This document shows, one piece after another, positions 16,432 through 25,274 of a DNA stretch of 64,000 nucleotides; position 1 is the first letter of the stretch; each line of letters starts with the position of its first letter. The translations under genes were made by a program, and so were the position numbers. The notes under the pieces were generated by a model. It searched no databases, had not been told where the DNA came from, and was given only the letters and a program-made list of their open reading frames with translations. The stretch comes from Rubripirellula sp. (lineage in GTDB: Bacteria; Planctomycetota; Planctomycetia; Pirellulales; Pirellulaceae): the NCBI GenBank assembly GCA_965216875.1, contig OZ244207.1, positions 3,424,001 through 3,488,000 on the forward strand, written 5' to 3'.

Positions 16432-16627
16432 GATTCGCAGTCGCTTCTATCTTGCCCATTTTCAACCGGGCACATCCGGTCTTGCCACGATAGCGTTAAT
16501 TGCGAACACTTAGGTAACGGACATCGGCTGAGTCGACTCTGTGGCGGCTCTCGGTCTGTGTTCGTGACAACCTATCGACAACATTTGTTGAATCATCGTG
16601 CCAATCCACGCGTCCGAAAGACAACGC

Positions 16628-17266
16628 ATGAATTTTCCTATGGCTCACGACATCGTGGCTAATGAACTGGCGAGCAGCCATTCCTACCAGAGCTACCAAC
16701 GACAGCGACAGTTGACCCTGGGCGACCTGTTGCTGGAAAACCGGATCGTCTTTTTGCAGGGCGAGATTCACTACGCGAACGCAAACGACGTGGTGATGAA
16801 GTTGCTGTATCTGCAAAGCGAAAACCGCCGCAAAGACATTCACTTCTACATCAACTCACCGGGCGGAAGTGTCACTGCGACCCTTGCGATCTACGACACG
16901 ATGCAAATGCTCTCGTGCCCTGTCGGCACCTACTGCGTCGGCGAAGCCTGCAGTGGCGCGGCCGTGTTGTTGGTCGGCGGCACCAAAGGCAAACGCTTCT
17001 GTCTGCCCAACAGCCGCGTCATGATGCACCAACCCATGGGTGGTGTCGGCGGTCAAGTGAGCGATATCGAAATCCAAGCGGCCGAAATGTTCCGCTACCG
17101 CGATGTGCTGAACGAGATCATCAGCAAGCACAGCGGTCAAACTGTCGACAAGATCGCCAAGGACACTGACCGTGACTTCTTCCTGGGTGCTCAAGAAGCC
17201 AAAGAGTACGGATTGGTTGACGACATCCTGGTCAAACCACCATCCGACGAAGAAGACGACGATTGA
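16628..17266 (+). CDS. clpP: ATP-dependent Clp protease proteolytic subunit, paralog 1 (start 16628 or 16640)
   Basis: [20 protein letters not shown] (Ser), MMHQP (His), DRDFF (Asp). Confidence 0.95.
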   Translation: MNFPMAHDIVANELASSHSYQSYQRQRQLTLGDLLLENRIVFLQGEIHYANANDVVMKLLYLQSENRRKDIHFYINSPGGSVTATLAIYDTMQMLSCPVGTYCVGEACSGAAVLLVGGTKGKRFCLPNSRVMMHQPMGGVGGQVSDIEIQAAEMFRYRDVLNEIISKHSGQTVDKIAKDTDRDFFLGAQEAKEYGLVDDILVKPPSDEEDDD

Positions 17267-17330: not shown

Positions 17331-17921
17331 ATGCCAATGATTCCCTACGTCGTCGAAAAAAGCGGTCGTGAAGAACGCGTTTACGACATTTACAGCCGAC
17401 TGCTGAAAGACCGAATCATCTTCCTTGGCCAACAGGTCGATGATCACATCAGCAATGCGTTGGTGGCTCAAATGTTGTTCCTGCAATCGGACGACCCCAA
17501 AGCCGACATCCACCTTTACATCAACAGCCCCGGTGGCAGCATCACTGCGGGCATGGCGATCTATGACACGATGCAATTCGTCTCGTGTGACGTCGCAACC
17601 TATTGCATCGGCCAAGCCGCTTCGATGGGTGCCGCACTGCTGACCGCAGGTGCCAAAGGCAAACGATTCGCTCTTCCAAACGCACGAATCATGATTCACC
17701 AGCCGCTCGCAGGCATGCAGGGCACCGCTGCGGAAGTCGAGATTCACGTCGAAGAACTGCGTCGAATCAAAAAGAAGATGAACGAGCTGATGATTGAACA
17801 CACCGGTCACTCGCTCGAGAAGATCGAACAAGACACCGATCGTGACCGCTTCATGTCGGCCGAAGAGGCCTGTGAGTACGGCTTGATCGACAAGGTTGTC
17901 AGCAAGTCAACCGACGGCTAA
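17331..17921 (+). CDS. clpP: ATP-dependent Clp protease proteolytic subunit, paralog 2
   Basis: [41 protein letters not shown]. Confidence 0.97.
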
Positions 17922-17978
17922 ACGTTCGCATTGCCGCAACTCGGTTGCGGCAAGTCACAAACGAATGAACCACACGAT

Positions 17979-18020
17979 TCGGCCGCCATGCATTGATTCG
18001 CATGGCGGCCGATTTATGTT
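17979..18020 (+). terminator. Intrinsic terminator after the clpP pair
   Basis: 13-bp stem TCGGCCGCCATGC/GCATGGCGGCCGA followed by TTTATGTT; second hairpin TTGCCGCAAC/GTTGCGGCAA at 17931-17953. Confidence 0.7.
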
Positions 18021-18058
18021 AAGGTTCCACAGGTTTTCAAAACCATCCTTTGGTAGTC

Positions 18059-18131
18059 GCCCCCTTCGTCTAGCGGCCCAGGACGCCGAGCTTTTCCGCT
18101 CGGAACGCTCGTTCGAATCGGGCAGGGGGTA
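18059..18131 (+). tRNA. Non-canonical tRNA-Glu-like gene (8-nt anticodon loop; CCA not encoded)
   Basis: Cloverleaf: acceptor GCCCCCT/AGGGGGT, D arm GTCTAGCGGCCCAGGAC as in bacterial tRNA-Glu, anticodon stem CCGAG/CTCGG around CTTTTCCG, T arm GCTCG-TTCGAAT-CGGGC, discriminator A. Confidence 0.85.
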
Positions 18132-18235
18132 CTCCGTGGCGACACAGGACAGTAGCTGACGTCCACAATCCTCAGTCGGGGAGGACGTGCCGCAGATTGG
18201 AGTTTACAACGCCGTGAAGTGAAGTGCGCACCAAC

Positions 18236-18377
18236 AATCACCCGCTCGCTTGCGGGAGGGTCGGACGCAAAGTCCGGGGAGGGTTTGAGCCCTACAATCA
18301 GGCCTTCACCGGGCCTCTGAGTCTTGCCTCGTTCCCACGGTCCTCCGTGGGAACTCACTCTTTGCCGCTTCGCGGCG
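18236..18377. repeat. REP-like repeats upstream of the sulfatase
   Basis: AATCACCCGCTCGCTTGCGGGAGGGTCGGACGCAAAGTCCGGGGAGGG (inverted relative to the 20187 and 25163 copies) and GTTCCCACGGTCCTCCGTGGGAAC (as at 16152 and 16303). Confidence 0.8.
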
Positions 18378-20186: not shown

Positions 20187-20302
20187 AACACTCTCCCTTG
20201 GGAGAGTCGGGCTCTCAGGCCCGGAGAGGGTTTGTTACTTGCAGAGATCGTGCCCTCCCCGGACTTTAGCGTCCGACCCTCCCGAAAGCGGGAGGGTGAT
20301 TG
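20187..20302. repeat. ~115-bp REP doublet (direct repeat of 25163-25274)
   Basis: AACACTCTCCCTTGGGAGAGTCGG...CCCTCCCCGGACTTT..GCGTCCGACCCTCCCG..AGCGGGAGGGTGATTG. Confidence 0.85.
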
Positions 20303-20426
20303 TTTTTCACGCGGTTGACAATTTGCGGGATCAGATGGAAAATCGCCGCTGTTGAGAACAGTTCTCATCAAGAGCCAGCGCGGTCTACGCCCGTCTCTTC
20401 AATCGCCCACCAACCTGCCTTCCATA

Positions 20427-25162: not shown

Positions 25163-25274
25163 AACACTCTCCCTTGGGAGAGTCGGACTCTAAGGCGCAG
25201 AGAGGGTTTGTTCTGTAACATTATTCCCTCCCCGGACTTTGCGTCCGACCCTCCCGCAAGCGGGAGGGTGATTG
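25163..25274. repeat. ~112-bp REP doublet (direct repeat of 20187-20302)
   Basis: Same arms as 20187-20302 with a different central spacer. Confidence 0.85.

What the first reader, a model, noticed from the sequence alone, without database searches (positions are those of the whole stretch)
18059..18131. tRNA-Glu-like RNA that keeps synthetase identity features but looks unfit for normal decoding
Seen: all four stems pair and the D arm (U11-A24, U13.G22) matches bacterial tRNA-Glu. However the anticodon stem CCGAG/CTCGG closes an 8-nt loop CUUUUCCG (or a 6-nt loop if C-G pairs), UUC is followed by C rather than a purine, the variable loop is only AAC, and the T stem has U51.G63 and C52-G62. 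Established: the augmented D helix and short variable loop are GluRS identity elements; G51-C63 favours tight EF-Tu binding; 8-nt loops can cause +1 frameshifting. Inference: intact pairing combined with several decoding defects fits a maintained non-ribosomal glutamyl carrier, tRNA mimic or frameshifting tRNA better than random decay. Removing one U as a homopolymer error would still leave C37 and the 3-nt variable loop.
Basis: partly seen in the sequence, partly recalled or inferred. Interest (0 to 1): 0.8.

Follow-up and report, generated by a model that had tools for sequence, protein, structure and literature searches.

The report
Conserved glutamate tRNA with oversized anticodon loop
This is a real, evolutionarily maintained glutamate-tRNA gene whose codon-reading loop has been remodelled (8 bases instead of 7), one of a whole group of such genes in marine planctomycetes that probably no longer read codons in the normal way.

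Summary
Window 18059-18131 (+) is a complete cloverleaf with an 8-nt anticodon loop (CUUUUCCG), C at position 37, a 3-nt variable loop and a U51.G63 T stem. It is not a sequencing error: three contig sets, one from another study, match it exactly.

It is the clpP-linked ortholog of the Pirellulaceae tRNA-Glu(CUC). It is not decaying. The tRNA is 96% identical between species whose flanks are at random-level identity, and stems stay paired through compensatory changes.

It belongs to an apparently undescribed group:
- 46 Planctomycetota loci carry 7-, 8- or 9-nt non-canonical loops.
- In an unbiased sample of the window's sub-clade, 26 of 30 loops are non-canonical, yet U35 and C36 are invariant.
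- Every aberrant tRNA has a T stem predicted to bind EF-Tu weakly: -9.7 here against -10.8 for the genome's normal tRNA-Glu(UUC).

Best reading: a tRNA that is still glutamylated but has been withdrawn from ordinary decoding. Glutamyl-tRNA reductase is a speculative consumer. Continued decoding of triplets is the main rival; quadruplet reading and decay are unlikely. No RNA data were available.

The parts
18059..18131 (+). tRNA-Glu(CUC)-derived gene, G1 to discriminator A73 (73 nt); CCA not encoded
   Evidence: ARAGORN; sequence; orthology to the canonical tRNA-Glu(CUC) of G001 by sequence (88%) and clpP synteny
18068..18084 (+). D arm GUCU-AGCGGCCCA-GGAC with U11-A24 and U13.G22 (the 'augmented D helix' type)
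   Evidence: Only one D-loop base varies among the 30 clade loci, but the search pattern fixed most of this arm
18086..18103 (+). Anticodon arm: stem CCGAG/CUCGG around the 8-nt loop CUUUUCCG (18091-18098). Counted from the 3' side the loop reads U34 U35 C36 C37 G38, with three rather than two bases on the 5' side
   Evidence: The stem changes by compensation in relatives (G002 CCGGG/CCCGG). U35 and C36 are 30/30 invariant
18104..18106 (+). 3-nt variable loop AAC (the family norm is AAAC)
   Evidence: 3-nt variable loops occur only together with 8-nt anticodon loops (6 of 13, against 0 of 31 others)
18107..18123 (+). T arm GCUCG-UUCGAAU-CGGGC with G49-C65, C50-G64 and U51.G63
   Evidence: Predicted EF-Tu binding is -9.7 kcal/mol, against -10.8 for the genome's tRNA-Glu(UUC), using Table 2 of PMC3239215
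17331..17921 (+). clpP, the conserved upstream neighbour (a second clpP lies at 16598-17266)
   Evidence: Pfam CLP_protease, 286 bits. clpP lies beside the orthologous tRNA in 16 loci and in 32 rows
17979..18012 (+). 13-bp hairpin followed by a T-rich tail, between clpP and the tRNA; terminator-like
   Evidence: It suggests, but does not show, that the tRNA is its own transcription unit

Best explanation
The locus is a functional descendant of the Pirellulaceae tRNA-Glu(CUC) that has left the standard decoding design.

Proposed order of events in its lineage:
1. The T stem lost the EF-Tu-favourable G51-C63 pair.
2. The anticodon loop was remodelled: A37 to C or G, C34 to U or A, and one or two bases inserted 5' of position 34.
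3. The acceptor stem, D arm, T arm, U35 and C36 stayed fixed.

Proposed working (inferred, not shown): the RNA is processed, receives CCA and is still glutamylated by the single GluRS, through U35, C36 and the augmented D helix. It is then delivered to the ribosome poorly or not at all, because EF-Tu binding is weak and the loop is an 8-nt loop with a pyrimidine at 37. It therefore supplies Glu-tRNA to a non-ribosomal consumer. The only candidate found in this genome is glutamyl-tRNA reductase of the C5 haem pathway.

What is shown: the gene is real, orthologous to tRNA-Glu(CUC), under purifying selection, and part of a recurrent group. What is inferred: charging, exclusion from translation, and the consumer.
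For: 1. Real and conserved.
- Reads and contigs agree with the sequence.
- tRNA identity is 94.5-100% against flank identity of about 50% for G000, G002 and L105.
- Eight Mariniblastus-type species share an almost identical 8-nt-loop tRNA (mean 99.7%) with flanks at 55-58%; random sequence gives 49.5%.

2. The cloverleaf is kept by compensation. Across 44 distinct aberrant sequences, paired cells are 305/308 (acceptor), 218/220 (anticodon stem) and 218/220 (T stem), with up to four pair types at one anticodon-stem position.

3. Unbiased clade sample, selected on the D arm and T arm only (31 of 401 family genomes, 30 loci parsed).
- Loops are 7 nt in 16, 8 nt in 7 and 9 nt in 7; only 4 are canonical CUCUCAG.
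- U35 and C36 are 30/30 invariant.
- Position 34 is U in 14, A in 9 and C in 7. Position 37 is C in 16, G in 7 and A in 7.
- U33 is lost in some, and one genus has A34.
- This is hard to square with normal decoding and fits a constraint from synthetase recognition.

4. The Schrader-Uhlenbeck T-stem model (PMC3239215, Table 2 seen).
- All 43 scored aberrant Planctomycetota tRNAs fall between -9.7 and -8.1 kcal/mol.
- 16 of 20 canonical ones are at -10.1 or tighter. The 4 weaker canonical ones all belong to the clade in which aberrant loops arise.
- The same paper lists the Staphylococcus tRNA-Gly(UCC) at -9.5, against a class mean of -10.8.

5. The genomes keep a separate decoder. G000 has a canonical tRNA-Glu(UUC). 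G002, G080, G041 and G389 each have exactly one, and no canonical CUC (4 of 5 handles matched; G016 gave no match).

6. GluTR is present in G000. Competition between EF-Tu and GluTR for Glu-tRNA is documented in another bacterium (PMC4284751, abstract only).

7. The same kind of loop (CUUCUCGG, 8 nt, weak T stem) occurs in 6 Coriobacteriia loci.
Against: - There are no expression, CCA-addition, charging or EF-Tu data, and no RNA run was listed.
- A37 is a strong GluRS determinant in E. coli (PMC9976931) and is lost here, so charging is not assured.
- The 3-nt variable loop may disturb the 13-22-46 triple.
- The predicted EF-Tu weakening at this locus is modest: -9.7 is about 1.2 sd from the bacterial Glu(CUC) mean of -10.3. 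The model was measured with E. coli and T. thermophilus EF-Tu.
- The lineages are related, so the T-stem association rests on perhaps four to six independent clades.
- hemA is not linked to the tRNA, and nothing ties GluTR to this tRNA specifically.
- Within some lineages the loop is strictly conserved. The loop sequence therefore matters to something, which a pure 'carrier' model does not explain.
- An 8-nt loop can read triplets in frame in yeast mitochondria (PMC3113583).
Confidence: 0.45

Rival explanations
1. It is still a ribosomal glutamate decoder. The extra base lies 5' of the anticodon, the 3'-stacked UUC still reads GAA/GAG as a triplet, and the gene has merely switched from CUC to UUC with an unusual loop.
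For: - All insertions lie 5' of a retained NUC, and U35 and C36, which pair with codon bases 2 and 1, are invariant.
- The yeast mitochondrial tRNA-Thr(UAG) has an 8-nt loop and reads CUN triplets (PMC3113583, passages seen).
- G000 prefers GAA (62%) although its GC3 is 0.63.
- Many relatives have an ordinary-sized 7-nt loop, CUUUCCG (15 loci).
- The loop is strictly conserved within lineages.
Against: - A pyrimidine at 37.
- Loss of U33 and appearance of A34 in one genus of the same clade. An AUC anticodon would put Glu at Asp codons.
- Loop length changes between congeners (9 length changes on a 32-row clpP tree).
- Every aberrant tRNA has a weak predicted EF-Tu T stem.
Confidence: 0.25
2. 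It is a +1 frameshifting (quadruplet) tRNA that reads GAAA as glutamate at a programmed site.
For: - The 8-nt loop contains UUUC, complementary to GAAA; ARAGORN reads it as a 4-base anticodon.
- G002 has CUUC, complementary to GAAG.
- tRNAs of all 20 classes can be converted to quadruplet decoders in E. coli (PMC9094753, abstract only).
Against: - Close relatives have 7-, 8- and 9-nt loops with different 'extended anticodons', so a target site would have to co-evolve each time.
- 15,079 in-frame GAA codons followed by A occur in 2,735 long ORFs of G000. An efficient reader would be harmful, the same argument made for yeast in PMC3113583.
- No candidate target gene was sought or found.
Confidence: 0.07
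3. It has another non-translational role that depends on the loop sequence. Examples: a decoy or resistant variant against an anticodon-loop nuclease, a regulatory tRNA-like RNA, or a processing signal.
For: - The loop changes often between lineages yet is frozen within them. That pattern fits episodic adaptive change.
- A tRNA-Glu-like gene with loop CCUUCCG sits between an HNH endonuclease and a terminase small subunit in three Streptomyces loci, a prophage-like context.
Against: - No nuclease or partner has been identified.
- The canonical tRNA-Glu(UUC) in the same genomes is unchanged.
- The neighbours are housekeeping genes.
Confidence: 0.18
4. It is a decaying tRNA pseudogene, or an artefact of sequencing or of element integration.
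For: - The Rfam tRNA model does not report it.
- The U and A runs involved are slippage-prone.
Against: - Three contig sets agree with the sequence.
- The tRNA is conserved while its flanks are randomised.
- Stems change by compensation.
- There is no integrase nearby and no second copy of the 3' half in the genome.
Confidence: 0.03

Closest known systems
Canonical bacterial tRNA-Glu, with the E. coli GluRS identity set (PMC9976931, passage seen)
   Same: Cloverleaf; U11-A24; U13.G22; no residue 47; U35 and C36; a U at 34 when counted from the 3' side; normal D and T loops.
   Different: 8-nt loop; C37 instead of A37; 3-nt variable loop; G1.U72 and C2-G71 (shared with the family's canonical CUC tRNA); U51.G63; not reported by Rfam RF00005.
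Non-proteinogenic tRNA-Gly isoacceptors of Staphylococcus aureus (PMC7826273, abstract only; PMC3239215 Table 4)
   Same: An extra isoacceptor beside a proteinogenic one, with a T stem predicted or measured to bind EF-Tu weakly. It is charged by the single synthetase and used outside the ribosome.
   Different: As I recall (from no call), those tRNAs keep a normal 7-nt anticodon loop and have a known consumer, the Fem transferases. Here the loop itself is remodelled and the consumer is unknown.
Yeast mitochondrial tRNA-Thr1(UAG) with an 8-nt anticodon loop (PMC3113583, passages seen)
   Same: A natural, conserved 8-nt loop that arose by an insertion in a tRNA of another specificity; the clade shares the trait.
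   Different: It is organellar, a proven decoder of triplets, and has a single origin with a fixed loop size. Here loop size varies (7-9 nt) and decoding is unproven.
Frameshift-suppressor tRNAs SufB2 and SufJ (10.1101/2020.12.31.424971 and PMC4238358, abstracts only)
   Same: An extra nucleotide in the anticodon loop of an otherwise normal tRNA.
   Different: Those are laboratory suppressor mutations; this is a wild-type gene conserved across species. No frameshift target is known.
Partition of Glu-tRNA between EF-Tu and glutamyl-tRNA reductase in Acidithiobacillus ferrooxidans (PMC4284751, abstract only)
   Same: Glu-tRNA serves both translation and haem synthesis, and the two pathways compete for it.
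   Different: The abstract describes no dedicated, non-decoding tRNA-Glu.

Membership tests
tRNA (general) | Cloverleaf with acceptor, D, anticodon and T arms and the conserved D-loop GG and T-loop UUCGAAU | tested here: met
   ARAGORN drawing and MFE fold
tRNA (general) | 7-nt anticodon loop with U33 and a purine at 37 | tested here: not met
   The loop is CUUUUCCG, 8 nt, with C at 37
tRNA (general) | Match to Rfam RF00005 at the gathering score (29 bits) | tested here: not met
   No hit. In one search the orthologs L003 (48.6 bits), L009 (53.1) and L039 (47.4) did hit; L001 and L131 did not (3 of 5 sources)
tRNA-Glu (E. coli GluRS identity set, PMC9976931) | Anticodon-loop determinants U34, U35, C36, A37 | tested here: not met
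   U34, U35 and C36 are present when counted from the loop's 3' side; position 37 is C. U35 and C36 are 30/30 invariant in the clade
tRNA-Glu (E. coli GluRS identity set, PMC9976931) | U11-A24, the U13-G22:A46 triple, and absence of residue 47 | tested here: inconclusive
   U11-A24 and U13.G22 are present. The variable loop is AAC, one base shorter than the family's AAAC, so which A is missing cannot be told
tRNA-Glu (E. coli GluRS identity set, PMC9976931) | G1-C72 and U2-A71 (weak determinants) | tested here: not met
   G1.U72 and C2-G71, the same as in the canonical tRNA-Glu(CUC) of relatives
tRNA-Glu(CUC) ortholog group of Pirellulaceae | Sequence similarity and shared position downstream of clpP | tested here: met
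   88% identical to G001's canonical tRNA-Glu(CUC). clpP lies upstream at a similar spacing in L001, L002, L003 and L009
Non-proteinogenic (translation-excluded) tRNA isoacceptor | T stem with weakened EF-Tu binding relative to the proteinogenic isoacceptor | tested here: met
   By model only: -9.7 against -10.8 kcal/mol. No binding measurement exists
Non-proteinogenic (translation-excluded) tRNA isoacceptor | Aminoacylated in vivo and used by a non-ribosomal enzyme | not testable with these tools
   GluTR is present. No LanB-type hit was found, but that search's control also found nothing
+1 frameshift / quadruplet-decoding tRNA | 8-nt loop with a 4-base anticodon | tested here: met
   UUUC
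+1 frameshift / quadruplet-decoding tRNA | A matching programmed site, and a loop size kept among relatives | tested here: not met
   Loop size is 7, 8 or 9 nt among congeners and sister genera. No target site was searched for

The most novel reading that the evidence does not exclude
A previously unrecognised class of bacterial tRNA-Glu derivatives. These are orthologs of tRNA-Glu(CUC) that were first detuned for EF-Tu and then had their anticodon loops remodelled to 7-9 nt, keeping only U35-C36. They are maintained as dedicated glutamyl donors for a non-ribosomal pathway, either haem synthesis through GluTR or an unknown Glu-tRNA-dependent enzyme. They arose repeatedly within Pirellulaceae and, in parallel, in Coriobacteriia.
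Probability: 0.3. Interest if true: 0.85.

Novelty: new variant of a known kind. Interest (0 to 1): 0.7.

Why it matters
Natural cellular tRNAs with 8- or 9-nt anticodon loops that are kept by selection are very rare. The textbook case is organellar. Here at least 46 planctomycete loci, plus a parallel set in Coriobacteriia, keep a perfect tRNA-Glu body while the codon-reading loop is altered.

If the RNA is charged but kept off the ribosome, it would be a second natural example, after the staphylococcal tRNA-Gly, of a tRNA set aside for a non-ribosomal use. It would also make directly testable how cells split Glu-tRNA between protein and tetrapyrrole synthesis.

If it still decodes, it shows that bacterial ribosomes tolerate 5'-expanded loops with a pyrimidine at 37, which bears on quadruplet-codon engineering.

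In practice, annotation based on the Rfam tRNA model may miss the gene or mark it as a pseudogene. That model does not report this one.

Tried and rejected
- **Sequencing or assembly error.** Rejected. Contigs of X1, X4 and X5 show no difference in the tRNA, and relatives carry 8-nt loops.
- **Expression.** No RNA holder was listed, so nothing can be said.
- **Integration artefact (a hybrid tRNA at an attachment site).** Rejected. There is no second copy of the 3' half or T arm in the genome at up to 4 or 3 mismatches. The neighbours are an amylase-like gene, two clpP genes, a sulfatase, znuA and an ABC ATPase, with no integrase.
- **A dedicated synthetase.**
  - G000 has three class-Ic genes. 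One is a 319-aa GluQRS homolog next to asnS.
  - GluQRS-like ORFs occur in 4 of 5 genomes with aberrant loops and in 4 of 5 with canonical loops, so there is no association.
  - No extra GluRS was seen in those ten genomes.
- **LanB-type Glu-tRNA-dependent dehydratase.** No hit in G000, but the search's control found nothing anywhere, so this is uninformative.
- **Loss of a GAG reader seen in codon usage.**
  - In ORFs of the fetched loci, the GAG share is 0.53 (24 loci with canonical loops) against 0.35 (67 of 76 loci with aberrant loops; 9 dropped for too few codons).
  - AAG and CAG fall by similar amounts, the genes differ between groups, and the lineages are related. The result is inconclusive.
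- **Rfam.** No family matches the locus. A weak sub-threshold CC1840 match (32.5 bits against a cut-off of 50) at 17928-18017 (-) is just the two hairpins after clpP.
- **Promoter scan.** No sigma-70-like site was found. The consensus may not apply to this phylum.
- **Literature.** Six full-text searches found no description of planctomycete or other bacterial tRNA-Glu with expanded loops. Supplements were not examined.
- **Earlier notes of this scan.** There were none for this genome. One note from another genome concerns a phage tRNA-Glu with a 38-nt loop, which is a different thing.
- **Search for a +1 frameshift target gene.** Not attempted.

Full report
**1. The observation**

ARAGORN finds a single tRNA in the 64-kb window, at 18059-18132, and labels it 'tRNA-?(Lys|Glu)' with a 4-base anticodon tttc.

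- The acceptor stem is GCCCCCU/AGGGGGU, with a G1.U72 wobble.
- The D arm is GUCU-AGCGGCCCA-GGAC, with U11-A24 and U13.G22.
- The anticodon stem CCGAG/CUCGG closes the 8-nt loop CUUUUCCG (18091-18098).
- The variable loop is AAC.
- The T arm is GCUCG-UUCGAAU-CGGGC, with U51.G63.
- The discriminator is A73, and CCA is not encoded.

The minimum-free-energy fold is this cloverleaf with C32 paired to the last loop G. The Rfam tRNA model does not report the gene at the gathering score, at E<=10 in 401 nt, or at E<=1 in its 3-kb locus. In one search the same model scored three orthologs at 47-53 bits.

**2. Not an error, not an integration scar**

Contigs from two runs of the same organism (X1, X4) and from one run of a different study (X5) cover 17850-18276. 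The X5 strain differs at three nearby intergenic places, yet none of the three shows any difference inside the tRNA. All three are contigs, not raw reads.

The genome holds no second copy of the tRNA's 3' half or T arm. The neighbours are an amylase-family gene, two clpP genes, a sulfatase, znuA and an ABC ATPase. A 13-bp terminator-like hairpin lies between clpP and the tRNA.

**3. What it descends from**

The genome (8.26 Mb, one contig) has 99 ARAGORN tRNA genes.

- One is a canonical chromosomal tRNA-Glu(UUC), at 2,980,285.
- Three divergent Glu tRNAs sit inside large tRNA arrays at 591-633 kb.
- There is no other chromosomal tRNA-Glu(CUC).

BLAST of the 74-nt gene against 41 related genomes matched in 32. 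ARAGORN on the 30 fetched loci found 28 tRNAs.

- The full-length relatives are tRNA-Glu(CUC) genes with the same G1.U72 acceptor stem and a canonical YUCUCAG loop.
- Congener G001 has CUCUCAG and the same T arm.
- Congener G002 has an 8-nt loop CUCUUCCG, a 3-nt variable loop, and a compensated stem (CCGGG/CCCGG).
- G016, from another genus, has the identical 8-nt loop CUUUUCCG on a different stem and T arm.

clpP lies just upstream in all of these. The locus is therefore the positional ortholog of tRNA-Glu(CUC).

**4. It is one of many**

*Family scan.* A pattern for this loop type matched 3 of 401 genomes of the family. A looser pattern anchored on the D arm and T loop matched 303 of 401. 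Only 150 of its 345 matches were printed. Among those were further 7-, 8- and 9-nt variants.

*Global scan.* One scan of about 185,000 species genomes for the D arm followed by YUC-S-G gave 76 loci.

- 66 of the 76 could be parsed. The 10 unparsed were contig-end truncations or chance matches.
- 46 are Planctomycetota tRNAs with aberrant loops: 28 of 7 nt (CUUUCCG in 15, CUCUCCG in 6, CCUUCCG in 4, three others), 15 of 8 nt (UUUUUCGG in 9) and 3 of 9 nt.
- Record titles name Rubripirellula, Roseiconus, Stieleria, Mariniblastus, Roseimaritima and Rhodopirellula.
- Outside the phylum, 6 Coriobacteriia loci carry CUUCUCGG (8 nt, CCA encoded).
- 3 Streptomyces loci carry a tRNA-Glu-like gene with loop CCUUCCG.

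*Unbiased clade sample.* The global pattern fixed YUC-S-G by design, so I repeated the family scan with a pattern that fixes only the D arm and this clade's T arm. It matched 31 of 401 genomes in 10 genera, and 30 loci were parsed.

- Loop lengths are 7 nt in 16, 8 nt in 7 and 9 nt in 7. There are 19 different loop sequences, and only 4 loci are canonical CUCUCAG.
- Counted from the loop's 3' end, U35 and C36 are 30/30 invariant.
- Position 34 is U in 14, A in 9 and C in 7. Position 37 is C in 16, G in 7 and A in 7. Position 38 is G in 25, A in 4 and C in 1.
- One genus has loops such as UCAUCCA and UGAUCCA, which lack U33 and have A34, together with U1.U72 and G73.

*Tree.* On a clpP DNA tree (32 rows, 27 distinct sequences, quick method) the loop sequence changes at least 17 times and its length at least 9 times. 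Canonical and aberrant loops coexist within three genera.

**5. Selection**

| Group | tRNA identity | 150-nt flank identity |
|---|---|---|
| G000, G002, L105 | 94.5-100%, mean 96% | about 50% |
| Eight Mariniblastus-type species (8-nt loop) | mean 99.7% | 55-58% |
| Unrelated random 150-mers (control) | not applicable | 49.5% |

Across 44 distinct aberrant Planctomycetota sequences, stems are paired in 305/308 cells (acceptor), 218/220 (anticodon stem) and 218/220 (T stem). Up to four pair types occur at a single anticodon-stem position. The gene, and within lineages its odd loop too, is under purifying selection.

**6. Mechanistic clues**

(a) *A separate decoder exists.* G002, G080, G041 and G389 each have exactly one canonical tRNA-Glu(UUC) and no canonical CUC. 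G016 gave no match (4 of 5 handles).

(b) *Predicted EF-Tu binding.* I applied the averaged base-pair increments of Schrader and Uhlenbeck (PMC3239215, Table 2, seen).

| tRNA set | Predicted binding (kcal/mol) |
|---|---|
| This locus | -9.7 |
| G000 tRNA-Glu(UUC) | -10.8 |
| 20 distinct canonical CUC sequences | median -10.6 |
| 43 scored aberrant Planctomycetota sequences | -9.7 to -8.1 |
| 7 Coriobacteriia sequences | -9.5 to -8.0 |

- Only four canonical sequences are weaker than -10.0, and all four belong to the clade where aberrant loops arise.
- That paper gives a bacterial Glu(CUC) mean of -10.3 (sd 0.5). It lists the Staphylococcus tRNA-Gly(UCC) at -9.5 against a class mean of -10.8.
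- The order suggested is T-stem weakening first and loop change second.
- The lineages are related, and the model comes from other species' EF-Tu.

[quoted passage not shown] Here U35, C36 and the D-arm elements are kept and A37 is not.

(d) *A possible consumer.* GluTR is present. No LanB-type enzyme was found, but that search's control was silent.

(e) *Codon usage.* G000 uses GAA for 62% of Glu codons. It has 15,079 in-frame GAA-A sites in 2,735 long ORFs, so an efficient GAAA reader would be damaging.

**7. Interpretation**

Most likely (about 0.45), this is a tRNA that can still be glutamylated but has been withdrawn from ordinary decoding and serves a non-ribosomal use. GluTR is the only candidate consumer I could name, and the link is speculative.

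- The main rival (about 0.25) is that it still reads GAA/GAG as triplets with a 5'-expanded loop, as the yeast mitochondrial tRNA-Thr1 does (PMC3113583).
- A loop-dependent, non-translational role is possible (about 0.18).
- A quadruplet reader (about 0.07) and decay (about 0.03) are unlikely.

Two things remain unexplained:
- The loop is frozen within lineages yet differs between them.
- 3-nt variable loops occur only with 8-nt loops (6 of 13 against 0 of 31), in three lineages.

**8. Known or new**

Six full-text searches found no description of such tRNAs. The closest known cases are:
- the staphylococcal non-proteinogenic tRNA-Gly;
- the yeast mitochondrial 8-nt-loop tRNA-Thr;
- laboratory frameshift suppressors.

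I rate this a new variant of a known kind and of high interest. No expression or biochemical evidence is available.

Noticed in passing
window 18231-18283 (+); also 20253-20304 (-) and 25226-25274 (-): A dispersed intergenic repeat of about 53 nt containing two short hairpins. blastn-short finds 146 hits in the genome, and contig depth over it rises about 800-fold. It overlaps the nominal start of the sulfatase ORF (18224), so the real start is probably further downstream.
   Followed up: partly
G000:C1:591000-632700 (outside the window): Three clusters holding about 50 tRNA genes, all on the minus strand. They include divergent Glu(UUC) x2, Glu(CUC) and Ile(UAU) genes and several oddly sized tRNAs, and look like a foreign tRNA array. 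ARAGORN also calls a 'tRNA-Pyl(cta)' at 3,282,034 and a tRNA-Sec at 7,784,436.
   Followed up: no
L049, L057, L060 (Streptomyces records): A tRNA-Glu-like gene with acceptor stem GUGUCC, loop CCUUCCG (C33, C37) and a normal T arm. It sits between an HNH endonuclease and a phage terminase small subunit, which is a prophage context.
   Followed up: partly
L035, L037, L048, L064, L085, L102 (Coriobacteriia MAG records): tRNA-Glu genes with an 8-nt loop CUUCUCGG, an A53-U61 T-stem pair and an encoded CCA. In the two loci examined (L035, L048) the neighbouring gene is of the Fic/DOC family.
   Followed up: partly
L131, L133, L135-L137, L139, L140 (genus g93 of the family): Orthologs with loops UUAUCCG, UCAUCCA or UGAUCCA: A34, and in some no U33. 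They also have U1.U72 and G73, so they have diverged further from a decoding tRNA than the window's gene.
   Followed up: partly
L075:1167-1743 (-): Three tandem copies of the aberrant tRNA at 252-nt spacing. Two of them have an unrelated sequence in place of the 5' acceptor strand.
   Followed up: no
Aberrant tRNAs: A 3-nt variable loop occurs only together with an 8-nt anticodon loop (6 of 13 eight-nt loops against 0 of 31 others). This is seen in three lineages: G000/G002/L105, G379/G401 and L093. It may be a length compensation or a coincidence of homopolymer slippage.
   Followed up: partly
G000:C1:4410352-4411311 (L112:1477-2436): A 319-aa GluQRS (YadB) homolog whose start overlaps the stop of asnS. 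It is present in Pirellulaceae genomes with and without aberrant tRNA-Glu.
   Followed up: yes
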